In this document: positions 1-31,046 of the stretch, one piece after another | Layout of the letters: each line of letters begins with the position of its first letter | Numbering within the stretch: the first letter of the stretch is position 1 | IMG/VR virus record: IMGVR_UViG_3300020438_000030 | Coordinates: 3,370-67,369 of that record | Direction: 5' to 3' (one strand) | Length of the DNA stretch: 64,000 nucleotides | DNA from: a virus | Program-made: the position numbers and the translations under genes | The notes under the pieces: model-generated | What the model saw: the letters and a program-made list of their open reading frames with translations, nothing else | Database searches by the model: none | What the model was told of the DNA's origin: nothing

Positions 1-1
1 A

Positions 2-283
2 GAAGAATACCTGGAACAATGGGAAGCAACCGTCACCTACGACAGAGCAAAGCCCTGCAACAAGCCGCCCTTCAACGGCAGCATCAGCAAGGACAAAGAA
101 GGCAAGCTCTGGTGCTACTGGATCCCAGTCCATGACAACAAAGAGCTCCAAGGCTGGTACGAAATCCCGTGCAAAGAAGACATTGAAGACTATGTCCTTG
201 GTTCATTAGCCTTTACACCTGGTGACCAAGAAGTTGAACCAGACCATCCTGATTCTTGGTTGAATCTTCTCTGTTTAATCTGA
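2..283 (+). CDS. hypothetical protein, 5'-truncated
   Basis: Frame open from position 2 (EEYLEQWEATV...EVEPDHPDSWLNLLCLI) to TGA at 281-283; not in the ORF track because the start lies outside the window. Confidence 0.7.
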   Translation, partial: EEYLEQWEATVTYDRAKPCNKPPFNGSISKDKEGKLWCYWIPVHDNKELQGWYEIPCKEDIEDYVLGSLAFTPGDQEVEPDHPDSWLNLLCLI

Positions 284-289
284 CCTAAG

Positions 290-320
290 TCTGGGCATCC
301 TTAACGGTGTAAGCCCCAGA
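290..320 (+). ncRNA. repeated structured intergenic motif, copy 1
   Basis: TCTGGG-CA-TCCTTAACGGT-GTAAGC-CCCAGA; outer stem has a compensatory A-U to G-C change relative to the other copies. Confidence 0.7.
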
Positions 321-336
321 TATATAACTAAATCTT

Positions 337-675
337 ATGTCAACAACAATCAGAGTCTACAAAGATTGTGGTCCTTATTGGGATCCAGATACTGACATAC
401 ATGTACTTCATAGCTTAGCCGATTTAATTGGCTGGGTTCGACATTACATGTCAGAAGAAATCCCAGACTGTATTGCTATCTACAACAATGATAATCTCAT
501 TGGTGGTTGGCTAGCAGAAGGAGATGCAGAGCCAGATGGTGAAGGGGGTATGTACCCTATTCACTGTGGTTATGAACGTGTTAGCCCCAATAGCTGGCAC
601 TGGACTAACAATCTTTTCAGACACACTTCCAAAATTACTCAAATGACAATTTTAAAAAGCAATGAATCAATCTGA
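337..675 (+). CDS. hypothetical early protein
   Basis: 112-aa ORF in a tightly coupled + strand array. Confidence 0.75.
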   Translation: MSTTIRVYKDCGPYWDPDTDIHVLHSLADLIGWVRHYMSEEIPDCIAIYNNDNLIGGWLAEGDAEPDGEGGMYPIHCGYERVSPNSWHWTNNLFRHTSKITQMTILKSNESI

Positions 676-940
676 AATGACAAAGCTTCACAAACAACAA
701 CTCAACATCAGATTACCTCAACATTGGTACATTGATAAACTTGATGATCTTGCAGAACGCACAGGTCGCAGTCGTATTGATGTAGCACGTTCATTGCTTA
801 TGGCTGCTGTTGAAACTTGTTATCCAGAAGAAGGACCAATTATTACAGTAGAAGATGTTCCTAAGTTTGAAGACTTAATGGACATCTACACATGGTCCTG
901 TTATGACAATGAACAACAAACACCTACTAACGACAAATGA
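662..940 (+). CDS. ribbon-helix-helix (CopG-like) DNA-binding protein
   Basis: QLNIRLP...KLDDLAERTGRSRIDVARSLL fits the RHH beta-strand plus two-helix pattern. Confidence 0.65.
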   Translation: MNQSEMTKLHKQQLNIRLPQHWYIDKLDDLAERTGRSRIDVARSLLMAAVETCYPEEGPIITVEDVPKFEDLMDIYTWSCYDNEQQTPTNDK

Positions 941-1161
941 CAGGACGCAATCGCTATCGTGTCAAGTACAGACATGAGCCACCAACAGATCCTGTACCTG
1001 GTCAAGATTATCTTCTTGGTGTAGGTACTTGGTCTGCCAATATTTATGCTCATGACATTGATGATGCACGGCACCAGATCCTAAAGAACTTTCCACGCAG
1101 AAAGTCTGATGGAAAAATGGTCCATAGAGTTATTGTTTCTTGTCGCAAAATCTACTACTGA
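937..1161 (+). CDS. hypothetical protein
   Basis: ATGA overlap with the upstream gene. Confidence 0.7.
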   Translation: MTGRNRYRVKYRHEPPTDPVPGQDYLLGVGTWSANIYAHDIDDARHQILKNFPRRKSDGKMVHRVIVSCRKIYY

Positions 1162-1166
1162 ATTTA

Positions 1167-1328
1167 ATGAATCAATCTGAATACATACCACCACCGTCTT
1201 TAAAAGAACGTGGTGGTCGTAATCCTGTTATGACAGTAGGCAACAGGCGTCCATGGAAAACTAAAGATCGTAAACGATCTAAATCCAAATCAAATCTAAC
1301 AATCTTAACCAAACTTAACAATGAGTAA
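1167..1328 (+). CDS. small basic hypothetical protein
   Basis: ATG at 1167 (MNQSEYIPPP...) preferred over the TTG at 1140. Confidence 0.5.
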   Translation: MNQSEYIPPPSLKERGGRNPVMTVGNRRPWKTKDRKRSKSKSNLTILTKLNNE

Positions 1329-1542
1329 ACCTGAAAAGTATTTGATTGAACCTATGACTGGTGTTGATCAAAGCATGGTCGAGTCACTTGCTAAAGTACT
1401 TGAGGTAATGCCGCACCAGATTATAGAGACTGCTCTGCATGAATGGCTTGAAGTTAACTTCATGCGTATCAATTCACTACATCGTAGTGCACAAGAGATC
1501 CACAATCAACTCAATCCCAAATCAAATGAAACAGGAACATGA
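1321..1542 (+). CDS. hypothetical protein, possibly RHH-like
   Basis: 73-aa ORF, overlap-coupled; GVDQSMVESLAKVLEVMPHQIIETAL. Confidence 0.65.
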   Translation: MSKPEKYLIEPMTGVDQSMVESLAKVLEVMPHQIIETALHEWLEVNFMRINSLHRSAQEIHNQLNPKSNETGT

Positions 1543-1730
1543 AAAACTTTATTAATTCCTATTTAATTGATGTAGTAGATGATGATTATGCTGAAACGGG
1601 TTTGACCAAAAGTCAAATCGACGATGCAACTGAATACATCTACTGGGCGTACGACTGTACTGAAATGTACGAACAAATTGATCGTTTGCTCACGGCTTAC
1701 CTTGCAACTCAATCCAAATCAAACTCATGA
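1539..1730 (+). CDS. hypothetical protein
   Basis: ATGA coupling on both sides. Confidence 0.7.
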   Translation: MKNFINSYLIDVVDDDYAETGLTKSQIDDATEYIYWAYDCTEMYEQIDRLLTAYLATQSKSNS

Positions 1731-2005
1731 CAACCAAATTTATTACTCCAAAAATCAATCTCAATGGTACTTCAGCAGAAACAATCTATGATGAACTTAA
1801 TGAAGCAAGAGTAAAACTTAATCAAGCATTAAAAACATTACGACTTGTCACAGTGCATGGTCGAGACTTTCAGACCATGCCTGACCCTAATGCTACTTGG
1901 CTTCAAGCCAAAACAGAACATCACGAAGCTATCAATCGTGTTGATGATGCATTAGATTGGGTTGACGCATGGATGGTAGCTATCCAAGAACAGATGTTCA
2001 CTTGA
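1727..2005 (+). CDS. hypothetical phage protein
   Basis: 92-aa helical ORF (INLNGTS...HGRDF), ATGA coupled. Confidence 0.75.
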   Translation: MTTKFITPKINLNGTSAETIYDELNEARVKLNQALKTLRLVTVHGRDFQTMPDPNATWLQAKTEHHEAINRVDDALDWVDAWMVAIQEQMFT

Positions 2006-2033
2006 TCAAACCTATTCAATTCAATTCAAACTC

Positions 2034-2306
2034 ATGGCTAAAAAACGCAGCGCTATCAACTTCCGCAAAACAATTTTCGGAATTGAAATCACAGAGAATG
2101 GTATACAATCTTTCGGTAAATCCGTAAAGCTTGGTCCTATTCAACTGTCTGGTAACATTGGACGGTCCGGTATCCTGGGATCTGTGGCGATCCCTGGAAC
2201 CGGCATCAGCAAACGCAGAATTAAATTGGCTGACCTACCAGACTTCAACACACCTGACTTACCTGAACACAAGAACAAACCTGACATGTGGACTGAAGAC
2301 GAATGA
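2034..2306 (+). CDS. DUF4236-like protein
   Basis: FRK...FGKSVKLGPIQLSGNIGRSG...SVAIPGTGIS resembles the DUF4236 signature. Confidence 0.6.
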   Translation: MAKKRSAINFRKTIFGIEITENGIQSFGKSVKLGPIQLSGNIGRSGILGSVAIPGTGISKRRIKLADLPDFNTPDLPEHKNKPDMWTEDE

Positions 2307-2497
2307 CGTACGTTTCCAAAGATCAAGTACCTGCTGATGCTGAAATCTTTACAGGACCCAAAGGCGGTACTTATTTCTACCGTGATGGTAAACGTATTTA
2401 TATCTTCAGAGATAAGAAGAAAGGTCAAAGACATACATTTAATCCTCGTAAAGGTAAATTCACTGAGTGGTTAGATAACCAACTCACACAACATTAA
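2303..2497 (+). CDS. small basic protein with a TGPKGGxY motif
   Basis: IFTGPKGGTYFYRDGKRIY resembles the basic adaptor motif seen in viral proteins. Confidence 0.6.
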   Translation: MTYVSKDQVPADAEIFTGPKGGTYFYRDGKRIYIFRDKKKGQRHTFNPRKGKFTEWLDNQLTQH

Positions 2498-2570
2498 GAA
2501 ATGATAAAGCCCCCTGCACCCCCGCAGGGACCACCAAGAATACTTATATACCTTTAAGTAAATACTTCTA

Positions 2571-2605
2571 TCTAGGCATTGTCCCCCCTACATGTAAGCC
2601 CTAGA
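2571..2605 (+). ncRNA. repeated structured intergenic motif, copy 2
   Basis: TCTAGG-CA-TTGTCCCCCCTACAT-GTAAGC-CCTAGA. Confidence 0.7.
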
Positions 2606-2632
2606 CTTCTGTTGTTCATTCAATCTCATCTC

Positions 2633-2878
2633 ATGCTTCAACCCAATGATCCAACCATCTATGACACTCTTGAACGAATGGAGTTGTTTGGCGGTGGCTT
2701 TGTTGCCAAGTTGGTAGCTGCTTTTAAGCATGCTGATCAACGTAACAAAGAACGTATCATCGCTGCTTTTCCAGAACTCTTTGAAGAGTACGGACCTAAC
2801 AGTGTCTTTGCTTCTAAAGATTCTTCTATCCAATCTATGGGTTATTCCATGGTCAAACATCTCAGTATACGAAAGTAA
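2633..2878 (+). CDS. hypothetical phage protein
   Basis: ATG at 2633 (MLQPNDPT...FGGGFVAKL...AD..NKERIIAAFPE); the track's TTG start lies inside the RNA motif. Confidence 0.75.
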   Translation: MLQPNDPTIYDTLERMELFGGGFVAKLVAAFKHADQRNKERIIAAFPELFEEYGPNSVFASKDSSIQSMGYSMVKHLSIRK

Positions 2879-2880
2879 TT

Positions 2881-3180
2881 ATGTCTATTATCAACATCAT
2901 TGATCTTGAAGAAGATCTAGTAACACATGAATCAATTCATTACATCGTCACTGCAATGGTTGCAGACAAACGTCTTGCCCGGCCTGCTGTCTATCACCCA
3001 GCAGATCTGGCTTCGCCTGAAGAGTATGGCCCTGGTGTTTGTTCAGCAGGGTTTGAAATTTTGCTTGGCGACAATCCTCCGCCAACCTTGGGTAGTCCTG
3101 TAGATCTACTCAATTACATTCAAGACTTAAATCTTGACTGGCAACTAGACGAATACCCGTATCATTATGGAAGCTTCTAG
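2881..3180 (+). CDS. hypothetical protein
   Basis: 99-aa acidic ORF with PEEYGPG. Confidence 0.7.
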   Translation: MSIINIIDLEEDLVTHESIHYIVTAMVADKRLARPAVYHPADLASPEEYGPGVCSAGFEILLGDNPPPTLGSPVDLLNYIQDLNLDWQLDEYPYHYGSF

Positions 3181-3227
3181 TCATGCCTTGCAAAAACCTA
3201 CGCAACAGTTAAACTGATTGCACAAAC

Positions 3228-3273
3228 CTAGGCAGCCGAGTGACATCCTTGTCGCGGCTAGGCGTAAGTCCTA
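3228..3273 (+). ncRNA. repeated structured intergenic motif, copy 3 (long inner hairpin)
   Basis: CTAGG-CA-GCC...GTGACA-TCCT-TGTCGC...GGC-GTAAGT-CCTA, 7 nt upstream of the tRNA. Confidence 0.65.
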
Positions 3274-3280
3274 AAACATT

Positions 3281-3368
3281 GGGAGTGTGGCGGAATTGGT
3301 AGACGCATCAGACTTAAAATCTGTGGACTGTTACAGTCGTGCGAGTTCAAGTCTCGCCACTCCTACCA
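3281..3368 (+). tRNA. trnL: tRNA-Leu(UAA)
   Basis: Acceptor stem GGGAGTG/CACTCCT, D-loop GGAATTGGTAGAC, anticodon loop CT-TAA-AA, long variable arm, T-loop GTTCAAGTC, encoded CCA. Confidence 0.95.
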
Positions 3369-3402
3369 AACACTTAGTATTCATTATTAATTCTATTTTT
3401 CA

Positions 3403-4074
3403 ATGCAAGATAATGTCTCACTCATCTGGGCTACACAAAATGCTGAACCACTCATTGTAGAGATGGCTCGCGTTAGTGCTCCAGCTAATGCAAAGAACGT
3501 CTCAACTGGTCCCAGGTTGTTAAAGTATCTTATTAAACAAAAGCATTGGTCACCATTTCAAATGGCATCAATGTGTGTAGAGATACGTACAACCAGAGGG
3601 ATTAGTCCTCAAATTTTACGTCATTCATCCTTTGGTTTCCAAGAATTTTCACAACGCTATGCAAACAGCAACGCTATTGGTAGTCCCCAGCTACCTCATT
3701 TACGCGCACAAGATCACAAGAACAGACAAAACAGTACAGATGATTTACAACAAAAGTTAGGTAAGCCAAGGCTTTCTGATTTTTACAGACGTATAGGTAT
3801 CTTGTATGAAGATGCTGAACATCTGTATCAAGAAATGCTTAGTGCTGGTGTTGCAAAAGAATCAGCACGTTTTGTATTACCTTTGTCTGCGCCCACAAAA
3901 TTATTTATGTGCGGCACACTCAGATCATGGCTCCATTACATAGACTTGCGTACTGCTAATGGTACGCAACAAGAACACAAAGAGATAGCTGAGCAATGCA
4001 AGGCTATCTTTCAACAACAATTCCCTATTATTTCGGAGGCAATGTGGGACGCCACTATCACCAAACACTCATGA
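3403..4074 (+). CDS. thyX: FAD-dependent thymidylate synthase
   Basis: HWSPF, RHSSFGFQEFSQRY (RHx..SxRY ThyX motif), AKESARFVLP, LRSWLHYIDLR...QxEH. Confidence 0.95.
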   Translation: MQDNVSLIWATQNAEPLIVEMARVSAPANAKNVSTGPRLLKYLIKQKHWSPFQMASMCVEIRTTRGISPQILRHSSFGFQEFSQRYANSNAIGSPQLPHLRAQDHKNRQNSTDDLQQKLGKPRLSDFYRRIGILYEDAEHLYQEMLSAGVAKESARFVLPLSAPTKLFMCGTLRSWLHYIDLRTANGTQQEHKEIAEQCKAIFQQQFPIISEAMWDATITKHS

Positions 4075-4391
4075 CACTTACGTGTAAATGTTGTGGTACA
4101 GACTTTACACGTAAAACAAAGCTTGAAGCTTATCGTATTAGACATAAAAAGTCAGGTCCTTATTGCAGTAAAAGCTGTGCTTCTAAAAGCAAACGAGATT
4201 ATGCACGTGCTTCTGGTTTAGAACATCCAAACACTATTCTTACTGAACAAGATGTTAGAACAATACGTATGCAATTCAAACACGGTGTACCAGTAAAGAA
4301 CATAATGATTCTTACTGGTATGTCTGAGAATTGTATTCGTTCAATCTTGTATAGAAAAACATGGAAACATGTGGAGGATTATGTCGCTTGA
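4071..4391 (+). CDS. Zn-finger plus NUMOD1/HTH-like DNA-binding protein (homing-endonuclease-type domains, no nuclease core)
   Basis: CKCCG...YCSKSC and GLEHPNTILTEQDVRTIR...RKTWKHV; ATG at 4071 overlaps the thyX stop. Confidence 0.65.
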   Translation: MTLTCKCCGTDFTRKTKLEAYRIRHKKSGPYCSKSCASKSKRDYARASGLEHPNTILTEQDVRTIRMQFKHGVPVKNIMILTGMSENCIRSILYRKTWKHVEDYVA

Positions 4392-4569
4392 ATTAGAAGA
4401 TGCTCTCCATCTTATTTATAAAGGTCAAACTAATGTAGCTGTTATGGCAAAAAAATTAGGCATCTCATTAGAAGAAATGAAACGCCTATTTGGTTTGTAT
4501 GTAAGCCAACGTCCTATTGATCCGGACATATGGCAAGCCGATGTAGAACCAAGCTGGCCTTGGGCTTAA
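4381..4569 (+). CDS. small HTH-like protein
   Basis: NVAVMAKKLGISLEEMKRLF. Confidence 0.6.
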   Translation: MSLELEDALHLIYKGQTNVAVMAKKLGISLEEMKRLFGLYVSQRPIDPDIWQADVEPSWPWA

Positions 4570-4715
4570 ACGACTTGTCCTTTCATTCGTTCACGATCAA
4601 GTTTTGCTTCAAACTCTTCACGTTGTTTCTTTAACCTTTCATTGGTCATCCAAATGAGCAAAGGGTTAGTACGTTCGTACTTAACACCTCGATAGGTCAG
4701 TGTCTTGGTAGACAT
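4566..4715 (-). CDS. DUF4278-family 'downstream peptide' (49 aa)
   Basis: MSTKTLTYRGVKY carries the LTYRG motif; GGAGG RBS; preceded by a glutamine-II riboswitch. Confidence 0.85.
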   Translation of the reverse strand: MSTKTLTYRGVKYERTNPLLIWMTNERLKKQREEFEAKLDRERMKGQVV

Positions 4716-4732
4716 GATGTCCTCCGCTAAAA

Positions 4733-4781
4733 CCCAGGTCCCGTTCCCTACCTGGTGAATTGCGCCCCAATGGGGTGAACG
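4733..4781 (-). promoter_or_regulatory. glutamine-II (Downstream-peptide) riboswitch
   Basis: Minus strand reads CGTTCA-CCCC-ATT-GGGG-CGCA-ATTCA-CCAGGT-AGGGAACGGG-ACCTGG; 5' CGTTC can pair with loop GAACG (pseudoknot); TATAAT lies just upstream; precedes a YRG peptide. Confidence 0.85.
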
Positions 4782-4788
4782 TCTTTTT

Positions 4789-4794
4789 ATTATA
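4789..4794 (-). promoter_or_regulatory. sigma70 -10 box for the riboswitch transcript
   Basis: Perfect TATAAT 7 nt upstream of the aptamer 5' end. Confidence 0.65.
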
Positions 4795-4797
4795 GTC

Positions 4798-4826
4798 CTG
4801 GGCAGCCTTAGTGGTATAAGTCCTAG
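4798..4826 (+). ncRNA. repeated structured intergenic motif, copy 4
   Basis: CTGGG-CA-GCCTTAGTGGT-ATAAGT-CCTAG, with G-U wobbles in both stems. Confidence 0.65.
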
Positions 4827-4850
4827 ACTCAACTCAACTCAACTTAACTC

Positions 4851-5621
4851 ATGCACACACTAAAACTTTCCAAAGGTAATGCCAAACTTGGTAAACGCCT
4901 TATCTTTTCATTACCAGCAGGATATACATGCCCTAATGCTGGTCATTGCAAAACATTTGCAGACAGAGTTACTGGTACAATTTCAGATTTACCTATGGCA
5001 GCTAATGCTTCTGGTCCTGAATACAGATGCTTTGCTGCTATGTCAGAAGCACGTAGTAAAAACTGTCGTGATGCACGTTGGTATAACTGGGATATCCTTA
5101 AAGAATTATTGTATAGTCCAGACGTAAGAAATCCTCAAGGTGCAATAGAAGATACAATTGCTTATGCAATATGGCAGCATAATAACAAGAAGTTTATATA
5201 CGATTTGTTTCGCATCCATGAGTCAGGTGATTTTTGGTCTGAGATTTATTTCAAAGCATGGCTTGAAGTTGCAAGACAACATCCAAAAATTAAATTCTAT
5301 GCTTACACTAAACAACTTCAGTACTGGCTCAACAATCAAGATGCTATTCCTTCTAACTTCTTTCTCACTGCTTCAGTTGGCGGTAATCTCGACCCTCTCT
5401 TAAATAAATACAGACATGTATTTAAACGTATTGCTTATGTAGTCTATACAGAACAAGAAGCTATTGACATGGGATTAGAAATAGACCATGATGACAGTCA
5501 TTGTTTTGGTGACAAACCTTTTGCTTTATTAGTTCATAGTGTTCAACGTAAAGGTTCTGATGCATCTAAAGCATTAAGTGCACGTAAACGTCAGGGTTCT
5601 TGGACAGGATATAGCAAATAA
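4851..5621 (+). CDS. Gp88-family phage protein
   Basis: GNAKL..FSLPAGYTCP...C...CFA, FRIHESGDFW and FYAYTK motifs of the GP88 family. Confidence 0.75.
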   Translation: MHTLKLSKGNAKLGKRLIFSLPAGYTCPNAGHCKTFADRVTGTISDLPMAANASGPEYRCFAAMSEARSKNCRDARWYNWDILKELLYSPDVRNPQGAIEDTIAYAIWQHNNKKFIYDLFRIHESGDFWSEIYFKAWLEVARQHPKIKFYAYTKQLQYWLNNQDAIPSNFFLTASVGGNLDPLLNKYRHVFKRIAYVVYTEQEAIDMGLEIDHDDSHCFGDKPFALLVHSVQRKGSDASKALSARKRQGSWTGYSK

Positions 5622-5636
5622 CAAGTTGCATAATTG

Positions 5637-5675
5637 TGCAGAACAGATATTATTTATGTGTTCTGCATTTATTTT
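5637..5675 (+). terminator. inverted repeat (possible terminator or operator) upstream of the PolA operon
   Basis: TGCAGAACA-N13-TGTTCTGCA followed by TTTATTTT. Confidence 0.4.
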
Positions 5676-5909
5676 ATGGCTTATTTAATTACAACTTATT
5701 TAGAAGACATACCTCATGCCATTATTCCTAATCCTTCTGCTAAACGTTTTGAATTAATTCCTATTGTAAAAGACTCTCAAGTTTCAAAAGCATTTTGTTC
5801 TCCTAACAAAACAGGTGCTATGAGTATACTTAACTGGATCAATGACAATGACACAGAACTTGCTTCAAAAAACCTTTCTGTTCAACCTGAAGCCAAGTTC
5901 TTCTGCTGA
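5676..5909 (+). CDS. hypothetical protein
   Basis: ATG at 5676 (MAYLITTY...). Confidence 0.6.
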   Translation: MAYLITTYLEDIPHAIIPNPSAKRFELIPIVKDSQVSKAFCSPNKTGAMSILNWINDNDTELASKNLSVQPEAKFFC

Positions 5910-7710
5910 AAAATGGTACGTATTTGATATAGAAACTAACGGACTTTATGATGATGTTAATGAAATCTTCTGCATCGTTATCTACGATGTCACGCGACAA
6001 CAAACTATTACTTACGGGCCTGACTCTATTGACAGTGCTATTGATGCTCTCAATGGTGCTGATGTACTTATCGGTCATAACATAATTTTCTATGATATTC
6101 CTGTCCTACAAAAATTAAAACCATCTTTTGTTTTAAACAAACAACATGTCATTGATACACTCATCTGCACACGACTCATCTGGCCGAAAGAAAAGTTATT
6201 CGAATCGGATACAGCTTCATACACACGTGTGCCAGGTGGACTCAAAGGGTCAGCTTCACTCAAAGCTTGGGGTCATAGGTTATCCGACTACAAAATTGAG
6301 TTTAAAGATTTCTCGTCTTTTTCTCAAGACATGTTGTCCTACTGTATACAAGACGTCAATGTCACAACCAAGCTTTTCGAACATATCCAAAAGCAAACCA
6401 TTGCAGAAAGCTCGCTTCAACTGGAACATATTTTTGCATCCTGTATTGAGAGACAGATTAGATCAGGTTTTCCTTTTGATATTGATGCAGCTCTTAATTT
6501 TGTGGATGAACTTGAATGTAAAAAACAAATATTAGAAAAAGAATTAATTAATTTGTTTCCTCCTATTGAACATGAAGAATGGTTTACTCCTAAAGTAAAT
6601 AATGTTTCTCGTGGTTATATAAAAGGACAACCGTTTTGTAAGAAACGTATTGAAGTTTTTAATCCTGGTTCACGTCAACAAATTGTAGAACGATTAAAAC
6701 AAAAATATAATTGGATTCCTGAAACTAAAACAGAGAAGGGAAATCCAGTTCTTAACGATGATGTTCTAGAAAAACTTCCATACCCTGAAGCTAAACCTTT
6801 AGCTGAATACATGTTACTCAAAAAAAGATTAGGTCAACTCAAAGATGGAAACAATGCATGGATCAAGCTTGTATCTCCTGATGGTTATATTCACGGTGAC
6901 GTCATTACTAATGGCTGTATTACTGGCCGTTGTAGCCACCGTAATCCAAACACAGCCCAAATTCCAGCAGCTTATAGTCCATATGGAAAAGAATGCCGTT
7001 CTTTATTTCATGCTCCTAATGATTGGATCCTTATTGGTTCTGATGCTAAAGCCTTGGAACTTCGTTGTCTTGCAGGGTACTTAGCTTTTTGGGATGAAGG
7101 AGAATATGGGCAAATGGTTACTGATGATTCAGTTGATATTCATACATACAATCAAGAAAAGTTTGGTGTTGAAACAAGAGACATAAGTAAACGACTTCTC
7201 TATGCAGTTCTTTATGGTGCTGGTTTTCTTAAAGCAGGTAGCATTGTAGATCCTAATGAAAAGAATCCTGATGTACTTAAAAGATTAGGTAAGACTGCTA
7301 TCAATTCTTTTATGACGGGAGTTCCAGCTCTTCAACAACTTAAAAATAAACTAGCAGAAAACTTAATTGCGCGTGGTTATTTACTTGGTTTAGATAGAAG
7401 ACCTTTGTATTGTCGTTCTGATTTTAAAGCTTTAAATGTATTACTGCAATCTTGTGGTGCAATTTTAATGAAGCAAGTTGTAGTTAACATCCATAAGAAT
7501 TTAACAAAAGCTTGTTTTGTTTATGGTCAAGACTGGCAGCAACATGGAATGATCCATGATGAAATCCAACTCAGCTGCAGACCAGGACTTGAAAAAGAAA
7601 TCATTCGTCTTGTTCTATCAGCTTTCCCTATGGCTGGTGAAACATTTGATTTTCAATGTAAGATTGAAGGCGATGCCAAGACTGGATATACTTGGTACGA
7701 TACACACTGA
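5842..7710 (+). CDS. polA: family A DNA polymerase with 3'-5' exonuclease (T7-like)
   Basis: ExoI FDIETNG, ExoII GHNIIFYD, ExoIII YCIQDV; motif A SDAKALELR, motif B KRLLYAVLYG, motif C IHDEIQ. Confidence 0.95.
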   Translation: MTMTQNLLQKTFLFNLKPSSSAEKWYVFDIETNGLYDDVNEIFCIVIYDVTRQQTITYGPDSIDSAIDALNGADVLIGHNIIFYDIPVLQKLKPSFVLNKQHVIDTLICTRLIWPKEKLFESDTASYTRVPGGLKGSASLKAWGHRLSDYKIEFKDFSSFSQDMLSYCIQDVNVTTKLFEHIQKQTIAESSLQLEHIFASCIERQIRSGFPFDIDAALNFVDELECKKQILEKELINLFPPIEHEEWFTPKVNNVSRGYIKGQPFCKKRIEVFNPGSRQQIVERLKQKYNWIPETKTEKGNPVLNDDVLEKLPYPEAKPLAEYMLLKKRLGQLKDGNNAWIKLVSPDGYIHGDVITNGCITGRCSHRNPNTAQIPAAYSPYGKECRSLFHAPNDWILIGSDAKALELRCLAGYLAFWDEGEYGQMVTDDSVDIHTYNQEKFGVETRDISKRLLYAVLYGAGFLKAGSIVDPNEKNPDVLKRLGKTAINSFMTGVPALQQLKNKLAENLIARGYLLGLDRRPLYCRSDFKALNVLLQSCGAILMKQVVVNIHKNLTKACFVYGQDWQQHGMIHDEIQLSCRPGLEKEIIRLVLSAFPMAGETFDFQCKIEGDAKTGYTWYDTH

Positions 7711-7764
7711 TTACTGGGCATTCTTAGTATGTAAGTCCCAGATTTCTGATCCAACTTTAAACTC

Positions 7765-8610
7765 ATGAATCAAGTATTCGTTTGTGCTCAAGCTACAGAA
7801 GATCCAAAAGAAATTTATTTGGATTCTTCCAGGACTGCACTTAAAGTAAAAGTACAACTGCCTCCTATTAGTGCTAACAAAGCACCCACAGAGTTGTACT
7901 ATCATATCTTTCAAGATCAAGCACGCTGGCGTTCATTAATCAAAGCAGGTACTTGTCTGTTTATTTATGGTGCAAAGTTACACCATGACTTGGAAGCACG
8001 TGAACATTCTATTCATGGTGGTAATCCAGCTATTGTTGATGATTCCTTTCCTATTTACAACTCAGTTATTTTGACAGGTCGTGTTGCAAAAGATCCTGAT
8101 CAAACTAATCCAATGACATTTAAAACTACTGACAGTGGTTTGATGATTGCCAATATGAGTATGACAGTGAGTAAAGGGAAAGCATCTGCTGATCTTTTTA
8201 ACTTTACTTCTATGAATAAAATGAATGACGCATTTAGACCTGCTGAACTTTTAGTTAATCTTTGCAAAAAAGGAACTGGCATTACTATTCAAGGCCAGTT
8301 AATTACTGACAGTTGGTTTGATCACAAATCAAAACAACAACGATATAACACTAAGATTCAAATGAAACAGATGACATTAGCTCCTAAAACAGAGTTAACA
8401 TCTAATTCAATTAAGCCAACCACAACAATAGCTACTGACATTGAACCTAAACCACTCTGGGGTGGACGTACTGCTGAATCAGAGCCAGTAGAAACTTCTG
8501 TTTCTGAACCTGTAAAACCAATGGCTGTTGCTGAACCTTGGGGTGAATCTACTAATGGTTTACCTTCATTACCTGTTAATGATTCAACCAGTTCAAAGGA
8601 ACCCTTTTGA
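7765..8610 (+). CDS. ssb: single-stranded DNA-binding protein (tandem OB-fold-like)
   Basis: NSVILTGRVAKDP...KGTGITIQGQLITDSW.D resembles SSB; P/S/E-rich tail ending in EPF; next to polA. Confidence 0.7.
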   Translation: MNQVFVCAQATEDPKEIYLDSSRTALKVKVQLPPISANKAPTELYYHIFQDQARWRSLIKAGTCLFIYGAKLHHDLEAREHSIHGGNPAIVDDSFPIYNSVILTGRVAKDPDQTNPMTFKTTDSGLMIANMSMTVSKGKASADLFNFTSMNKMNDAFRPAELLVNLCKKGTGITIQGQLITDSWFDHKSKQQRYNTKIQMKQMTLAPKTELTSNSIKPTTTIATDIEPKPLWGGRTAESEPVETSVSEPVKPMAVAEPWGESTNGLPSLPVNDSTSSKEPF

Positions 8611-8624
8611 GCTAAGCTACCACC

Positions 8625-8658
8625 ATCTAGGCAGTCGTTAACGACGTAAGACCTAGAT
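8625..8658 (+). ncRNA. repeated structured intergenic motif, copy 5
   Basis: ATCTAGG-CA-GTCGT-TA-ACGAC-GTAAGA-CCTAGAT. Confidence 0.75.
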
Positions 8659-8682
8659 ATTCACACTAGTCCGACGGACTTT

Positions 8683-9801
8683 ATGACACCGATCAAAACA
8701 GCAACCAAGTCTACAGCGCTCAGTTTATTTCCAGAAACATCATCCATTGTTGTTCAAAAAGCTCCAGAACAACGTTCACTTGATTCCTTTTTACATCTCA
8801 CACAACCTGAGTTTATAGGAGCTGCTCCATCCCCTGGACAAATTATTGCTCTTAACAAACCAAATGATCGTGCTCATTCACGTGATACTGGTGGCTTGTT
8901 TATTAAACAAGAAGATCTAATTAAATGTGCTTGGAAAGCATCTGCTTCTGATCTTGAACCTGCCTCATTTATCCAACCTTACAAACAAAAGTTTGGTGGT
9001 AATGATGAACCAAATGCAGGTATTCTTTTTACTAAACCACGGTTCCAGATTGTTTTTGAAACTGCTGGTTTACTTGAGAAGAATGTTGTAGATGAAAAGA
9101 CAGGATCTAATAAGTCAGTAATCATTGGCTCGTTTAATCCTGCAGATAACTTATCTGATTCAGGTAAAATTAATATGCTGTGGGATATGTATAACGAAAA
9201 TAAAAAAGACCATACAATTCGTACTTGGTACTATGTTTATTTCATGAGTGGTTATGGCCAACGGTGTCATGAACTTCCTTTGATTCTTAGTATTAAAGGT
9301 GCTGTTGGTGCTTCTTTTAGAGATCAACTGAAAGCATTTAGAGATGATGTAGGTTCTGCTTTAGCAGCTGCTACTAAAACTCCTAAGCGTCCTGCTAACT
9401 ATGATGCTTATGCGCAGTACATTTTCCAACCCCATCTTGAATTAAAAGATGTAGGTCAAGGAAACAATCAATCAACAGCGGTAACAGCTTTTGATTATGA
9501 ACATCCTCTTTATGATCAAGGTCAAGAAGCTGCTTTAGTTTCTTTGGATTCTCATATTATTCCTGACAATCTAAAGACAATTACGTCTGAAGAACGTCAA
9601 GATGAATATGCTATTGGCATGATGAGCCGTTACACAGATGGTAATGGTTTCATCAACATTGCAGATGGTGTACAAATTACACCTATGGGAATCATGCCAC
9701 CTATGCTTAAGGAGTCTTCTAGCAATTTGTTAGAAAGTTCTATGCCTAACAAGATGCTTGCATCTGCTCGTGATTCATTCGGAGCTGACTCTAAGTTCTG
9801 A
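8683..9801 (+). CDS. hypothetical protein, DUF5895-like (cyanobacterial mobile elements)
   Basis: GILFTKPR and HELPLILSIKGAVGASF resemble DUF5895; replication-module context. Confidence 0.55.
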   Translation: MTPIKTATKSTALSLFPETSSIVVQKAPEQRSLDSFLHLTQPEFIGAAPSPGQIIALNKPNDRAHSRDTGGLFIKQEDLIKCAWKASASDLEPASFIQPYKQKFGGNDEPNAGILFTKPRFQIVFETAGLLEKNVVDEKTGSNKSVIIGSFNPADNLSDSGKINMLWDMYNENKKDHTIRTWYYVYFMSGYGQRCHELPLILSIKGAVGASFRDQLKAFRDDVGSALAAATKTPKRPANYDAYAQYIFQPHLELKDVGQGNNQSTAVTAFDYEHPLYDQGQEAALVSLDSHIIPDNLKTITSEERQDEYAIGMMSRYTDGNGFINIADGVQITPMGIMPPMLKESSSNLLESSMPNKMLASARDSFGADSKF

Positions 9802-9981
9802 TTCCATACGGTCTAGTGAATCTCTTACTAGACCTTTAATCACGCATTGACGGGTCGCAGCTAGCTTGACAAGCATAGTTGCGATCTGTTTTAATTCATA
9901 TACTGAGTTACAGTCTTCGATGGCACGTTCCATCTTGACCTTCCAGAATTCTTCTTCTGGGCTTGATTCAAAACTCAGCAT
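9775..9981 (-). CDS. divergent NblA-like small helical protein
   Basis: SPEEEF...ELKQIATMLVKLAATRQCVIKGLV resembles NblA SLEQQF...AKDFLVKLYEQMVVREATYQELL. Confidence 0.45.
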   Translation of the reverse strand: MLSFESSPEEEFWKVKMERAIEDCNSVYELKQIATMLVKLAATRQCVIKGLVRDSLDRMESELRVSSE

Positions 9982-10010
9982 TTCATTCAATTTTATTCTT
10001 TATTCTAACC

Positions 10011-10943
10011 ATGACTACAACAATTGAACAGTTAAATTCAGGTCAACGCATTATATATTCTCGTTCAAATATACGCAGAACATTTGCAGACTTTGATGAT
10101 ACAGATATATCAGGGATGTATTTAAATCCTGATGATCTTGTAGTTGTTTATAACGATGGAACAGAGAAAGAATTTAATACACGTCCTATTAAAGAAACCT
10201 TCAAAGACTTTCGTTCTCGTTGTCCTGACTTCTTTGCTTACCTTGGTCCTGATTTAAAAGGTCCTAGTTTCTGGCGTAACAATTGTTATGTCTTATATAA
10301 AGGTTGGAACTATCAATTTCAAGGTTCATATCGTTTGCCTCAAGCAATTATGCAACAGAAATGGGGAGACAAACTTCAACTAATAGAAAATGAAGAGGGC
10401 ATGAAAGCTTTCTTAAATAATCCTGACTACGGTTTTGGTTATTTAATTGCACCTGATGGTGTGCTTTTACCTGCTCCTCCTTTGTCTATTGATGATTCAG
10501 ATGAGATTGCGCAAGAACCTGACTTATCTCCTTACTGTTCTTGTGGTTCTTTTCTCCAGCAAAAAGAAGTATTGAATGAAATACAAGAAGAAATACCAGG
10601 TTATGAACTTACCTGTAAACATCTCACATGGATCAATCGTTATCGAGAGTTTCTTTCTAAACGATCAGCTTTAATAGAATCTAAGCCAGGAATGATTGAG
10701 AAAGCTACAGCTTGGTCTTATGCTCCACCACCATCTGGAGAACAACTTGGTCAACTACAAATTTTGTATACAACATCAGGTAAGATGGCTCCCATTAACA
10801 AATGGCGTATCTATAAAAAGGATGTGCGTTACACCCAACATGATGCTTGGGATTTGTTTGATGCCATGTTAGAAAATGAGTTTGTTCCTTTTCCTGCTCC
10901 AGCTTTAACTCAACTCAAACCTTTCTTTAGCAAGAAAAACTAG
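10011..10943 (+). CDS. SWIM zinc-finger protein
   Basis: CSCGSF...TCKHL (CxC...CxH). Confidence 0.7.
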   Translation: MTTTIEQLNSGQRIIYSRSNIRRTFADFDDTDISGMYLNPDDLVVVYNDGTEKEFNTRPIKETFKDFRSRCPDFFAYLGPDLKGPSFWRNNCYVLYKGWNYQFQGSYRLPQAIMQQKWGDKLQLIENEEGMKAFLNNPDYGFGYLIAPDGVLLPAPPLSIDDSDEIAQEPDLSPYCSCGSFLQQKEVLNEIQEEIPGYELTCKHLTWINRYREFLSKRSALIESKPGMIEKATAWSYAPPPSGEQLGQLQILYTTSGKMAPINKWRIYKKDVRYTQHDAWDLFDAMLENEFVPFPAPALTQLKPFFSKKN

Positions 10944-10964
10944 GCAGCTTTGCGTAAGTCCTAG
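10940..10964 (+). ncRNA. repeated structured intergenic motif, copy 6 (minimal)
   Basis: CTAGG-CA-GC-TTT-GC-GTAAGT-CCTAG; overlaps the upstream TAG stop. Confidence 0.75.
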
Positions 10965-10991
10965 CGTTCACTTTTATCTCTATCTTATTCA

Positions 10992-11105
10992 ATGTTTGGT
11001 TTCATTTTTGGTTTTGCTTCAGATTTAATCCGTGAAGTTGCTTATGCAGCTATGGGTGCAGTCTGTGCTTTTGCTATCAACTACGCTACTTCTTTCTTCT
11101 CATGA
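10992..11105 (+). CDS. small hydrophobic protein (37 aa)
   Basis: MFGFIFGFASDLIREVAYAAMGAVCAFAINYATSFFS; ATGA overlap with the next gene; below the track cutoff. Confidence 0.65.
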   Translation: MFGFIFGFASDLIREVAYAAMGAVCAFAINYATSFFS

Positions 11106-11737
11106 ATCAAATCACACCAACCAATCTCAAAGCTCTTAATGTCTTTGAATTGTATGATCACTATCATGCTTTAGAAGGCGACCTTGAAAGAACAAAAGAT
11201 TCTAAAAACAAAGAGTTAATGTTAGCTGAATTAGAAACTTGTTCTCGTTTGCGTTCAGAAAAAATTGATGCAATTTATTATTACATGGAAAAAAATACAG
11301 GAGCTGTTAAACGAGGGAAAGAAATAAAAGCAGAGATAGATAAGTCAATTAAGCATCACAATGCAAAATTAAATAGTGATCGTGCATTGTTAATGGAACT
11401 ACATCACAGAGGATGTGCTGATAAGAAAAATAAAATCAAAGGAAAAGATATTGAATTTACTATCTCTCAAATTGCAGACAAATTAATTGTCTCTTCTACG
11501 GTTGAAGAGTGGTCCGATGACGAGCGTGCAAAATACGCTATGGTAAAGAAGACCCGTATTGTTACCCAGTACACAAGCCTAGACGAAACCGTTTTACACA
11601 CTGATTCAAAAGAAAAACTCGACGTAGTTGCAAATCCTGATGCCCTTTTCAACGCCCACAAAAACCAAGACGTACTTCCCAAAGGAGTCACAGTCCTTCC
11701 CAACTATGCAATCAAATCTAGATTCCTCTTGGATTAA
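11102..11737 (+). CDS. siphovirus Gp157-like protein
   Basis: Coiled-coil N-terminus with EKIDAIYYY, KIKGKDIEFTI, and C-terminal LPKGVTV. Confidence 0.6.
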   Translation: MNQITPTNLKALNVFELYDHYHALEGDLERTKDSKNKELMLAELETCSRLRSEKIDAIYYYMEKNTGAVKRGKEIKAEIDKSIKHHNAKLNSDRALLMELHHRGCADKKNKIKGKDIEFTISQIADKLIVSSTVEEWSDDERAKYAMVKKTRIVTQYTSLDETVLHTDSKEKLDVVANPDALFNAHKNQDVLPKGVTVLPNYAIKSRFLLD

Positions 11738-12026
11738 ACACCATCCTAATTTACAACCAAATTTCTATAACAATCTTGACGTTCCTAAAAACATTAAAGA
11801 TGCTGAGCTGCGTATGCAATGCTCACGTCAAGCTGTTGAAGATATTAATCTTCAGTTAGCTATTGTTGATCAAGAGATTGAATTAGAAAGTAATCAAGAA
11901 GTTCCTTACAATGAGAACAAACTTGATGAGTGTAAAGAACACAAGCTTAAACTAATGAAAGCAAAACGCTATCACAACAACGCAGCTAATGCTTACTGGT
12001 ATTACCTGCAGCTTGCGGTAGGATAG
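11706..12026 (+). CDS. hypothetical coiled-coil protein
   Basis: ATG at 11706 preferred; helical composition. Confidence 0.65.
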   Translation: MQSNLDSSWIKHHPNLQPNFYNNLDVPKNIKDAELRMQCSRQAVEDINLQLAIVDQEIELESNQEVPYNENKLDECKEHKLKLMKAKRYHNNAANAYWYYLQLAVG

Positions 12027-26652: not shown

Positions 26653-26681
26653 GTATACAATAAATGAGTGTCTAAATAATT

Positions 26682-26849
26682 ATGACCCTTGATTCATTGG
26701 GCAGAGTCAATCAATCTGATGACTTAATTAGCGACTACTGGACTGGTAAATTAAAAGATAAAGAAGAAATTTTAAAACCAACTGAATTTTTTAAAAGGTA
26801 TTGCGCAGCTGAGCCTTGGATGCCAGAATGCAAAGAATATGATGTCTAA
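26682..26849 (+). CDS. cp12: CP12-like protein (55 aa)
   Basis: C-terminus YCAAEPWMPECKEYDV matches the CP12 C-x3-P-x4-C-x2-YD motif; missed by the ORF track. Confidence 0.75.
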   Translation: MTLDSLGRVNQSDDLISDYWTGKLKDKEEILKPTEFFKRYCAAEPWMPECKEYDV

Positions 26850-26852
26850 AAC

Positions 26853-27584: not shown

Positions 27585-27610
27585 AATATAGAAGTTGAAT
27601 CTACTTTGTT

Positions 27611-27757
27611 ATGCAAGATCTTTTAAGTAGCCCTATTACTTGGATTCTTATTGCTGCTGCTTCTGAAATTATTGCTTTATCTCCTTTGAAAGATAACAGC
27701 ATTATTCAAGTTGTTTTAAAAGCAGTTCTTAAAATTAAACCATCTGTAAAAAAGTAG
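27611..27757 (+). CDS. small membrane protein, holin-like (48 aa); candidate -1 frameshift extends it to 27924
   Basis: MQDLLSSPITWILIAAASEIIALSPLKDNSIIQVVLKAVLKIKPSVKK; ends in A_AAA_AAG_TAG. Confidence 0.7.
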   Translation: MQDLLSSPITWILIAAASEIIALSPLKDNSIIQVVLKAVLKIKPSVKK

Positions 27758-27920
27758 AAGGCATCACTCCTGATGACGCAGTGTTTATTGCACAGTGGTC
27801 ATTAAGGAGTGACAAAAAAAGAATTAAAGATGCACTTAGACGTCGTAGAAATATGGCATTAACAAGTCATCGTATTGATGAAGCCATACGTAAATATAAA
27901 GAAGATACAAACTGGGACGA

Positions 27921-28224: not shown

Positions 28225-28302
28225 GAGTACATAGCCAGTAATAGTAATATTGAAGCACAAATTCCCCAAAAACCGAGGAATGATATTGCTATCAAAGCAC
28301 CT

Positions 28303-29152: not shown

Positions 29153-29180
29153 AGTTAATAGTTATAACTTAAACAATATA

Positions 29181-30992: not shown

Positions 30993-31046
30993 TTCTACGC
31001 AGTCTAATATCTTCTATTTTAACTCCAAAATACTGTTAACTATCTA

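What the first reader, a model, noticed from the sequence alone, without database searches (positions are those of the whole stretch)
290..10964. Six-copy covarying RNA motif in front of early genes and the tRNA (possible phage regulatory or processing system)
SEEN: six intergenic + strand elements at 290-320, 2571-2605, 3228-3273, 4798-4826, 8625-8658 and 10940-10964 share the layout outer stem CTRGG / CA / variable inner hairpin (about 7-29 nt) / RTAAGN / CCYAG. The outer stem covaries (A-U in copies 2, 3, 5, 6; G-C in copy 1; G-U in copy 4). The inner hairpin changes sequence completely but still pairs, while the internal-loop residues CA and TAAG are invariant. Each copy lies 16-27 nt before a start codon, or 7 nt before tRNA-Leu, and none has a U-tract. 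I saw no copies in the late region. INFERENCE: selection acts on an RNA fold with a conserved asymmetric loop. It could be a protein-binding site (antitermination like nut/put, or translational control), an RNase III or phage-nuclease processing site as in T7 early RNA, or a small self-cleaving element. I do not recognise it as a known family. Candidate partner proteins are nearby (Gp88-like, SWIM protein, small basic ORFs).
Basis: partly seen in the sequence, partly recalled or inferred. Interest (0 to 1): 0.88.

Follow-up and report, generated by a model that had tools for sequence, protein, structure and literature searches.

The report
Cyanophage gene-boundary RNA hairpin family
Seven copies of a small, strictly patterned hairpin sit just ahead of early and replication genes and a tRNA of this S-EIV1-like cyanophage; the motif is in no RNA catalogue, recurs with compensatory changes in many related phage contigs, and probably marks and shields the start of each downstream RNA, which nobody has tested.

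Summary
An eighth lies just upstream of the window. All are on the + strand within the first 11 kb.

A covariance model built from the copies found 123 matches (100 distinct sequences) in 55 sources, mostly related phage contigs. The third pair of the lower stem is G-C 74, A-U 16, U-A 8, G-U 2, and never unpaired. UAAG is always present. The inner hairpin always pairs while its sequence, length and loop vary freely. No Rfam family matches.

The copies point the same way as the flanking genes, typically 20-35 nt before a start codon. In 11 of 11 loci a copy ends 3-6 nt before tRNA-Leu, so the role is not translational only.

In the S-EIV1 sublineage the same gene boundaries carry a different module. 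It is a pseudoknot-like hairpin resembling the plant-virus "coremin" RNA, which blocks 5'-3' exonucleases.

My best reading, at about 0.4, is an RNA boundary element that defines and shields the 5' end of the downstream RNA. Cleavage signal, antitermination site and split promoter are not excluded.

This scan had already noted the same motif on other genomes.

The parts
290..320 (+). Copy 1. Lower stem (T)CTGGG/CCCAG(A), upper stem CA-t-CC/GG-TG, bulge TAAGC. It ends 17 nt before the ATG at 337.
   Evidence: 41.2 bits
2571..2605 (+). Copy 2. CTAGG/CCTAG, upper stem CAT-t-GT/AC-ATG with a C-rich loop, bulge TAAGC. It ends 28 nt before the ATG at 2633.
   Evidence: 27.7 bits. Orthologues in L023, L026 and L027 keep the pairing.
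3228..3274 (+). Copy 3. CTAGG/CCTAA (first pair mismatched), 30-nt inner hairpin, bulge TAAGT. It ends 6 nt before tRNA-Leu.
   Evidence: 18.6 bits, E 0.04. It is supported by orthologues and by the tRNA rule, 11 of 11 loci.
3281..3368 (+). tRNA-Leu (UAA), the non-coding RNA that a copy always precedes.
4798..4826 (+). Copy 4. CTGGG/CCTAG (G.U in the third pair), the purine before TAAG is A, bulge TAAGT. It ends 24 nt before the ATG at 4851 (GP88-family gene).
   Evidence: (37.9 bits)
7714..7741 (+). CTGGG/CCCAG, upper stem CATTC/GTATG (one mismatch; perfect in the L023 orthologue), bulge TAAGT. It starts 3 nt after the DNA polymerase stop and ends 23 nt before the SSB ATG at 7765.
   Evidence: 40.4 bits
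8625..8658 (+). Copy 5. (AT)CTAGG/CCTAG(AT), upper stem C-a-GTCG/CGAC-G with loop TTAA, bulge TAAGA. It ends 26 nt before the ATG at 8683 (DUF5895 gene).
   Evidence: z -3.45; 34.3 bits
10940..10964 (+). Copy 6, the smallest at 25 nt. CTAGG/CCTAG, upper stem C-a-GC/GC-G, bulge TAAGT. Its TAG is the stop codon of the upstream gene. It ends 27 nt before the ATG at 10992.
   Evidence: 28.9 bits

Best explanation
The element is a cis-acting hairpin on the sense transcripts of the delayed-early and replication region.

Anatomy (shown):
- A lower helix of 5-6 bp, N-C-U-R-G-G paired with C-C-Y-A-G-N.
- A 5-nt bulge U-A-A-G-N on the 3' strand.
- An upper helix that starts C-G, followed either by A-U plus one bulged base or by a bulged A.
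- A free-form stem and loop above that.

Function (inferred): it is a boundary module of polycistronic phage RNA. It sits at the 5' edge of each expression unit, either an unstructured G-poor leader plus ORF, or tRNA-Leu. There it defines and protects the 5' end of the downstream RNA against 5'-end-dependent decay by host RNase J or RNase E. It would act either as a terminal hairpin left after upstream cleavage or as a roadblock. The invariant junction (GG/CC, C-G, UAAG) would be read by a specific fold or by a protein that is still unidentified and probably phage-encoded.

That the structure exists and is under selection I hold at about 0.9. The protective-boundary function I hold at about 0.4.
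For: Structure:
- In 100 distinct sequences, lower-stem pair 3 is GC 74, AU 16, UA 8, GU 2, unpaired 0. Pair 1 is CG 97, AU 2.
- 97.8% of cells are paired, against 87.6% in shuffles (0 of 500 reach the observed value) and at most 55% when partners are slid.
- A sixth flanking pair forms in 74 of 118 copies, using four Watson-Crick types.
- Every inner segment pairs while its sequence and its length (8-46 nt) change.

Placement:
- 100 of 122 distinct copies lie between co-oriented ORFs, against 19 of 122 when the element is read reversed.
- 108 of 122 have an ATG-ORF starting within 80 nt, median 29 nt.
- 11 of 11 tRNA-Leu genes have a copy ending 3-6 nt upstream.
- In a complete relative of 79 kb, all 9 copies lie on one strand within 11.8 kb, starting about 3.4 kb into the early arm.
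- No conserved promoter-like positions lie upstream. The leader downstream is G-poor.

Functional lead:
- S-EIV1, L028 and L029 carry a second covarying module at the same gene boundaries, before the GP88-like gene, SSB, the DUF5895 gene and the small membrane ORF.
- Many contigs mix both modules.
- That module shares the GUC...GAC helix and the G-UUAAAC-U spacer with the coremin Xrn1-stalling RNA, as described residue by residue in PMC6546385 and PMC10321173.
- A viral exonuclease-resistant RNA also stops bacterial RNase J1 (PMC5760640, passages).
- RNase J is present in 5 of 5 sampled genomes of the candidate host family.

Factor: only 3 of 151 picocyanobacterial genomes hold even one copy. 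The motif is therefore not a host signal.
Against: - No RNA ends were seen. The RNA runs are assembled contigs and show only that contigs span copies 2 and 4.
- Motif A itself does not resemble coremin or any solved exonuclease-resistant fold. It is a plain bulged hairpin of modest stability, -5 to -16 kcal/mol, with z-scores mostly above -2.
- That the two modules are interchangeable is inferred from position only.
- The evidence that the sense strand is the folding strand is weak. G.U pairs number 57 sense against 40 antisense; 52 sequences fold better in sense against 36. With symmetric scoring G.U is 45 against A.C 34. The closing pair is C.A in 10 of 100. A single-stranded DNA hairpin is therefore not excluded.
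- A tRNA hardly needs 5' protection.
- No partner protein was found.
Confidence: 0.4

Rival explanations
1. It is an endonucleolytic processing signal. A host or phage endoribonuclease recognises the junction and cuts in or beside the UAAG bulge. That separates the early polycistronic RNA into units, as RNase III does at the T7 early sites.
For: - Intercistronic placement, one copy per gene cluster, in the early region only.
- Invariant unpaired UAAG next to covarying helices.
- A copy directly ahead of a tRNA.
- The motif is nearly absent from host genomes, 3 of 151, which suits a phage-specific recognition.
Against: - The helices are far shorter than the roughly two turns that RNase III substrates need (recalled).
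- No nuclease family was found among the early ORFs. The only hit is a weak HNH-like match at 4071-4391.
- No cleavage data exist.
- RNA-library contigs run across copies 2 and 4. This is weak evidence, since the material may be DNA.
Confidence: 0.2
2. It is an antitermination or RNA-polymerase-modifying RNA of the nut/put type. The hairpin, alone or with a small early protein, would make host RNA polymerase read through terminators into the delayed-early genes.
For: - The copies start about 3.4 kb into the early arm, after a block of small immediate-early ORFs.
- An intrinsic terminator lies inside the region at about 5640-5676 and is conserved in S-EIV1.
- Small basic ORFs exist, for example 1167-1328.
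Against: - Eight to ten copies per 12 kb is far more than known systems need (recalled: two nut sites in lambda).
- The loops are not conserved, unlike boxB.
- That terminator overlaps its own TTGCAT-N17-ATTATT promoter-like site, so read-through is not required.
- Most copies have no terminator downstream.
Confidence: 0.1
3. It is a translational operator or enhancer. The hairpin sets the 5' edge of the ribosome landing site, or binds a repressor.
For: - A narrow distance to the start codon, with a mode of 25-34 nt measured from the hairpin end.
- G-poor unstructured leaders without a Shine-Dalgarno sequence.
Against: 11 of 11 tRNA-Leu genes carry the same element 3-6 nt upstream. Translation cannot be the common denominator.
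Confidence: 0.08
4. It is a split promoter for an unrecognised phage RNA polymerase. The half-sites GGGCA and GTAAG match the Syn5 RNA polymerase promoter, whose start is the G after GTAA.
For: - The Syn5 promoter printed in PMC3950665 (passages) has the same two half-sites in the same order. It occurs twice in Syn5.
- On this reading the leaders would be 23-42 nt for mRNAs and 10-13 nt for the tRNA.
- No other conserved promoter lies upstream.
Against: - No PF00940 RNA polymerase was found in G000, in the complete relative G001 or in S-EIV1. The Syn5 control scored 4e-77.
- The large unknown proteins carry no polymerase motifs and have no meaningful PDB relatives: none for the 1156-aa protein, and two weak matches at E 0.09-0.14 for the 810-aa protein.
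- The spacing between the half-sites varies from 8 to 46 nt.
- The covarying lower stem and inner hairpin have no role in a duplex promoter.
- The Syn5 copies lack the outer stem.
Confidence: 0.07
5. It is a DNA-level element. A single-stranded DNA hairpin or cruciform would serve replication priming or recombination, shuffling gene modules as proposed for repeated promoter/stem-loop cassettes of T4-type phages.
For: - The sense/antisense asymmetry is weak.
- Gene content between the copies differs among close relatives.
- One RNA-library contig lacks 1516-1714.
Against: - Strict co-orientation with the genes and a fixed distance to starts and to the tRNA.
- Restriction to one transcription block.
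- G.U outnumbers A.C in the sister module, 8 against 2.
Confidence: 0.05

Closest known systems
Coremin motif (xrRNA-C) of beny-, cucumo- and other RNA viruses, and its Watson-Crick pseudoknot variant (PMC6546385, PMC10520033, PMC10321173)
   Same: - It is a small protein-free RNA that protects what lies 3' of it from 5'-3' exonucleases.
- The sister module ('motif B') occupies the same gene boundaries in S-EIV1, L028 and L029.
- Motif B shares the coremin GUC/GAC helix and the G-UUAAAC-U spacer, and pairs the enlarged loop with the bases after the spacer.
   Different: - Motif A, the element in this window, has none of the coremin sequence or topology. It is a bulged hairpin with a UAAG bulge.
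- Coremin works in eukaryotic RNA viruses against Xrn1. Nothing has been tested in bacteria or for either phage module.
RNase III processing sites of phage T7 early RNA (R0.3 to R1.3); recalled, no call
   Same: - Repeated hairpins with an internal unpaired region lie between the genes of an early polycistronic RNA.
- They are conserved in position among relatives.
   Different: - T7 sites are about 20 bp long, with a symmetric or asymmetric bubble.
- Here the helices are 5-6 bp plus 3-13 bp with a 5-nt one-sided bulge, and the junction is sequence-invariant.
- No cleavage has been shown.
5'-terminal stabiliser hairpins of bacterial mRNAs (ompA type); recalled, no call
   Same: A hairpin at the 5' edge of an mRNA, followed by an unstructured leader. 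It hinders 5'-end-dependent RNases.
   Different: Those hairpins need no conserved sequence. This family has an invariant junction and bulge, and it also precedes a tRNA.
Lambda nut boxB / HK022 put antitermination RNAs; recalled, no call
   Same: A small hairpin on early phage RNA that governs expression of delayed-early genes.
   Different: - boxB is recognised through a conserved loop. Here the loop is free and the junction is conserved.
- Copy number is 8-10 here, not 2.
Syn5 RNA polymerase promoter (PMC3950665)
   Same: The two half-sites GGGCA and GTAAG occur in the same order, in a marine Synechococcus phage.
   Different: - The Syn5 site has a fixed 3-bp spacer and no flanking stem, and it comes with a cognate polymerase gene.
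- Here the spacer is 8-46 nt and folds, the flanks pair, and no polymerase gene was found.

Membership tests
Any Rfam 15 family | A covariance-model match at the family's gathering score | tested here: not met
   The window at gathering score gave only the tRNA and the Glutamine-II riboswitch. Positions 1-12000 at E<=5 gave nothing that overlaps a copy. The S-EIV1 early arm at E<=5 gave nothing on either module.
T7-type RNase III processing site | A double helix of roughly two turns (about 20 bp) around an internal loop | tested here: not met
   The lower helix is 5-6 bp. The upper helix is 3-13 bp in most copies.
T7-type RNase III processing site | Cleavage by RNase III in vivo or in vitro | not testable with these tools
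   Only assembled contigs of RNA runs were on hand.
Coremin / xrRNA-C | A 5' hairpin with a GUC/GAC stem and a YGAD (or YGNNAD) loop | tested here: not met
   Motif A has no such hairpin. Motif B has the stem but an 8-nt loop that pairs downstream.
Coremin / xrRNA-C | A conserved spacer of about 10 nt (U13 U14 A15 A16 A17 C18 U19 A20 C21) followed by a second hairpin | tested here: not met
   Motif A has only UAAG-N between its helices. Motif B keeps UUAAAC-U.
Coremin / xrRNA-C | Stalls a 5'-3' exoribonuclease | not testable with these tools
   This needs an Xrn1 or RNase J assay.
Lambda-type nut (boxA + boxB) | A conserved purine-rich loop on a 5-bp stem, with a boxA nearby | tested here: not met
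   Loops vary freely in sequence and size. There are no conserved flanking positions.
Single-subunit phage RNA polymerase promoter (Syn5/T7 type) | A fixed-length duplex site | tested here: not met
   The half-sites are 8-46 nt apart.
Single-subunit phage RNA polymerase promoter (Syn5/T7 type) | A cognate RNA polymerase gene in the genome | tested here: not met
   PF00940 is absent from G000, from G001 (complete) and from S-EIV1. The Syn5 control was positive.
Intrinsic terminator | A GC-rich hairpin followed by a U-tract | tested here: not met
   No copy is listed by the terminator scan. The downstream bases are mixed A/C/U.
Promoter plus stem-loop cassette (T4-type PeSL; recalled) | A sigma-70-type promoter at a fixed offset from the stem-loop | tested here: not met
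   No position from -40 to -1 exceeds 0.19 bits in 122 copies.

The most novel reading that the evidence does not exclude
DNA phages of cyanobacteria build their early messages from interchangeable, protein-free 'armour' modules. Motif A would be a new, minimal class of exoribonuclease-resistant RNA acting against bacterial RNase J. Its sister module would be a bacterial-virus relative of the plant-virus coremin knot. Exonuclease-resistant RNAs would then be neither confined to eukaryotic RNA viruses nor to Xrn1.
Probability: 0.2. Interest if true: 0.88.

Novelty: new variant of a known kind. Interest (0 to 1): 0.72.

Why it matters
How phages without their own RNA polymerase organise and stabilise long early transcripts in cyanobacteria is unknown. 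Cyanobacteria lack Rho and rely on RNase E and RNase J.

It has textbook covariation and is catalogued nowhere. It swaps places with a module that looks like an experimentally proven exonuclease blocker of plant viruses.

If the protective reading holds, it gives the first exonuclease-resistant RNA system of a DNA phage. It also gives a 25-nt part for stabilising messages in cyanobacterial engineering. If instead a protein reads the UAAG junction, it defines a new phage RNA-protein regulatory pair.

S-EIV1 is a cultured isolate with two copies of motif A and seven of the sister module, so the question is directly testable.

Tried and rejected
**RNA evidence.** One run search and one lay of four RNA or RNA-guessed runs were made. 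All four are assembled contigs with low, patchy cover. They show no starts or ends. Contigs span copy 2 (2366-2665) and copy 4 (4173-4851), but they may be DNA carry-over. The contig starting at 4812 carries primer-like tails at both ends. I draw no conclusion from any of this.

**Strand test.** Folding the sense against the antisense strand and a symmetric G.U/A.C count gave only a weak lean to the sense strand. GNRA and UUCG loops occur, but so do their complements. I dropped the tetraloop argument.

**Partner protein.** Pfam and PHROGs on the large ORFs and on 30-odd early ORFs gave no RNA-binding, nuclease or polymerase family. PDB sequence searches found nothing for the 1156-aa protein and two weak, unrelated matches (E 0.09-0.14) for the 810-aa protein. 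A regex look for polymerase motifs found none. A presence/absence table found one broadly shared 90-aa protein at 2034-2306. Its DUF4236 match is weak, E 0.021 and below the cut-off, and it has no evident link to RNA.

**Other structural ideas.** A pseudoknot between the UAAG bulge and the bases just 3' of the lower stem was rejected on geometry, since a one-base connector would have to span 5 bp. Mutual information between the bulge N and its neighbours was at most 0.09 bits. A conserved upstream promoter was not found.

**Host signal.** 151 genomes of the family of a Prochlorococcus genome gave 3 single matches.

**Literature.** Searches found no paper describing this hairpin or a phage coremin-like element. 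The S-EIV1 genome paper is not held, so I could not check whether it mentions repeats. Supplementary files were not opened.

**Bias to keep in mind.** recruited contigs with a pattern that fixes GGGCA...TAAGTCCCAG, and its chance expectation in so large a collection is high. Only loci that model R1 confirmed were used: 55 of the sources held, chosen by me from the hits. The weak tRNA-adjacent copies (E above 0.01) are not in alignment A4. I added six such copies by hand.

Full report
**What the window is.** The window is bases 3370-67369 of a 67-kb IMG/VR virus record. Its family A DNA polymerase is 65% identical to that of Synechococcus phage S-EIV1, the only isolate above 60%. It carries tRNA-Leu(UAA), a Glutamine-II riboswitch on the - strand, ThyX, a GP88-family gene, SSB, a DUF5895 gene and a primase-helicase. 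The + strand block from the window start to about 13.8 kb is the early and replication arm. Most of the rest is late genes on the other strand.

**The observation.** All six elements are present as described. A pattern without the outer stem (GGCA, 3-33 bases, TAAGNCC) finds seven sites, all on the + strand in the first 11 kb. Chance expectation is 2.3, and 1 of 100 shuffles reached seven. The extra site, 7714-7741, lies between the DNA polymerase stop and the SSB start. An eighth copy with a 46-nt insert lies upstream of the window at G000:2954-3016. Folded alone, the copies give -5 to -16 kcal/mol. Only copies 1 and 5 stand out from shuffles, so thermodynamics alone would not single them out.

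**Comparative evidence.** Five IMG/VR loci have a polymerase 86-94% identical to the window's. They carry the element at the same gene boundaries, with compensatory changes.
- Ahead of ssb the lower stem is CTGGG/CCCAG in the window and CTAGG/CCTAG in L024 and L026.
- Ahead of the DUF5895 gene the inner stem GTCG/CGAC becomes CTC/GAG while the lower stem changes A-U to G-C.
- Ahead of the GP88-family gene the first pair becomes A-U (ATGGG/CCCAT) in L026; L023 has an ATGGG/CCCAT copy at another site, 5501-5537.

I built covariance model R1 from 17 copies. It found 46 matches in the first 15 sources, every one on the strand of the early genes. In a complete 79-kb relative it found 9 copies, all on one strand within 11.8 kb and none elsewhere. 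After a pattern scan of IMG/VR (biased towards one stem type) the model confirmed 123 matches in 55 sources, 100 of them distinct.

Pair counts on that alignment:
- Pair 3 is GC 74, AU 16, UA 8, GU 2, unpaired 0.
- Pair 1 is CG 97, AU 2, other 1.
- Pairs 2, 4 and 5 never vary.
- 97.8% of cells are paired, against 87.6% in column shuffles (0 of 500 as high) and at most 55% with slid partners.

A sixth pair forms from the flanking bases in 74 of 118 copies. All 100 sequences carry TAAG, but the model and the recruiting pattern demanded it. The base before it is G 108, A 10. The base after it is T 99, C 15, A 3, G 1. The A of 'CA' is A 107 of 118. The inner segment always pairs, in one of two registers: C-G, A-U, one bulged base, stem; or C-G, bulged A, stem. 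Loops range from 3 to more than 10 nt, and some inserts carry nested hairpins.

**Placement.** Of 122 distinct copies with flanks, 108 have an ATG-ORF of at least 30 codons starting within 80 nt (median 29 nt). In 111 a same-strand ORF ends within 100 nt upstream. Both conditions hold in 100 of 122, against 19 of 122 when the element is read reversed. Most of the 14 without an ORF are cut by a locus end or precede a tRNA.

ARAGORN finds tRNA-Leu(UAA) in the window and in 10 of the 11 loci scanned. In all 11 cases a copy ends 3-6 nt before the tRNA. This includes L028, where most other boundaries carry the other module.

Upstream of the element no position is conserved (at most 0.19 bits). Downstream the leader is G-poor, with U favoured at +3 and +4.

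**A second module at the same boundaries.** In S-EIV1 the gaps ahead of the GP88-like gene, ssb, the DUF5895 gene, the small membrane ORF and a PcfJ-like gene hold a different repeat. It is GTCC, one base, a 5-6-bp stem whose loop reads TGAC-N-TTAAAC, then the stem's return strand. L028, L029, L030 and L031 have it at the same genes.
- Its stem covaries: 5 of 6 pairs show double changes, and 85% of cells are paired against 72.6% in shuffles.
- It has 8 G.U against 2 A.C.
- Its model R2 finds 37 sites in 27 sources, including contigs that also carry motif A (L061, L075, L076, L095, L101, L105).
- R2 finds none in the window, its own record, G001, L023, L024, L025 or L027.
- S-EIV1 keeps two copies of motif A.

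The two modules are therefore mixed in different proportions among related phages and replace each other at orthologous boundaries. That they do the same job is my inference from this.

**The coremin lead.** Earlier notes of this scan on other genomes pointed to the plant-virus coremin motif. I had found the second module independently, and I then checked the lead in the papers. The Results section of PMC6546385 describes a 5' hairpin with stem G2-C11, U3-A10, C4-G9 and a YGAD loop. This is followed by G12, U13 U14, A15 A16 A17, C18 U19, A20 C21 and a second, variable hairpin. A16 to A20 are essential for stalling Xrn1. Passages of PMC10321173 describe a variant in which loop bases pair with spacer bases in Watson-Crick fashion.

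Motif B has the same GUC...GAC helix and G-UUAAAC-U. Its enlarged loop pairs with the six bases after the spacer. The resemblance is real for motif B, but membership is not shown and no assay exists. Motif A shares none of these features.

Passages of PMC5760640 show that a flaviviral resistant RNA also halts bacterial RNase J1. RNase J (TIGR00649) is present above cut-off in 5 of 5 sampled genomes of the candidate host family.

**Promoter reading.** The Syn5 RNA polymerase promoter printed in PMC3950665 has GGGCA and GTAAG three bases apart, with transcription starting at the last G. It occurs twice in Syn5, without a flanking stem. The likeness to motif A is striking, but four points count against a promoter:
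- No PF00940 polymerase is found in the window's record, in the complete relative or in S-EIV1, while Syn5 scores 4e-77.
- The large unknown proteins show no polymerase motifs and no meaningful PDB relatives.
- The spacer varies from 8 to 46 nt.
- The covarying helices are unexplained by a duplex site.

**Host or phage factor.** R1 found single matches in 3 of 151 picocyanobacterial genomes. The motif is therefore not a host signal borrowed by the phage. If a protein reads the junction, it is more likely phage-encoded, or else a host enzyme with other natural substrates. No candidate emerged.

**Verdict.** The element is a genuine, selected, strand-specific hairpin family of S-EIV1-like cyanophages and is absent from Rfam. 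What is shown is its anatomy, covariation, placement, restriction to the early arm, link to tRNA-Leu and exchange with a coremin-like module. What is inferred is that it acts as RNA and that it defines and shields the 5' end of the downstream RNA. Rivals remain open: cleavage signal, antitermination site, translational operator, split promoter and DNA-level site. The same motif was noted before by this scan on other genomes. My scores rest on what I tested here.

Noticed in passing
It lies between the DNA polymerase stop (7710) and the SSB start (7765).
   Followed up: yes
G000:2954-3016 (upstream of the window; L002:792-854): An eighth motif copy with a 46-nt nested inner hairpin. Orthologues in L023 and L027 have CT instead of CA.
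   Followed up: yes
L009 (S-EIV1) 25882-43014 on the - strand; L028, L029, L030: A second repeated module: GTCC, a 5-6-bp covarying stem, and the loop TGAC-N-TTAAAC. It sits at the same gene boundaries where the window has motif A, and it resembles the plant-virus coremin Xrn1-stalling RNA.
   Followed up: yes
G000:262-292 (upstream of the window) and G001 near 39137 (- strand): A degenerate look-alike of the second module (GTC...GGACGTTAAAC) ahead of an immediate-early ORF. It did not reach E<=1 with model R2 and can fold differently.
   Followed up: partly
window 5625-5676: A hairpin plus T-run (terminator-like) after the GP88-family gene. It overlaps a TTGCAT-N17-ATTATT promoter-like site directly ahead of the small ORF and DNA polymerase. 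The same arrangement occurs in S-EIV1 upstream of its polymerase.
   Followed up: partly
window 8664-8676: A small hairpin, AGTCC-GAC-GGACT, lies between motif copy 5 and the start codon of the DUF5895 gene. It is conserved in L023, L025 and L027 and may be a gene-specific operator.
   Followed up: no
window 4733-4784 (- strand): A Glutamine-II riboswitch (43.3 bits, gathering score 33) ahead of a small - strand ORF, back to back with motif copy 4.
   Followed up: no
L173 (host-family genome G140, contig 1, 534354-534382, - strand): A single near-perfect motif-A copy (32.5 bits) between two co-oriented ORFs of a picocyanobacterial genome. It may be phage-derived DNA.
   Followed up: partly
window 1516-1714: One RNA-library contig joins 1516 to 1714. 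It skips 197 bases, roughly the ORF at 1539-1730, which suggests a natural variant lacking that small gene.
   Followed up: no
window 2034-2306: This 90-aa basic protein is the small early protein most widely shared across the related contigs examined, at 49-88% identity in 14 of 16. Its DUF4236 match is weak (E 0.021, below cut-off).
   Followed up: partly
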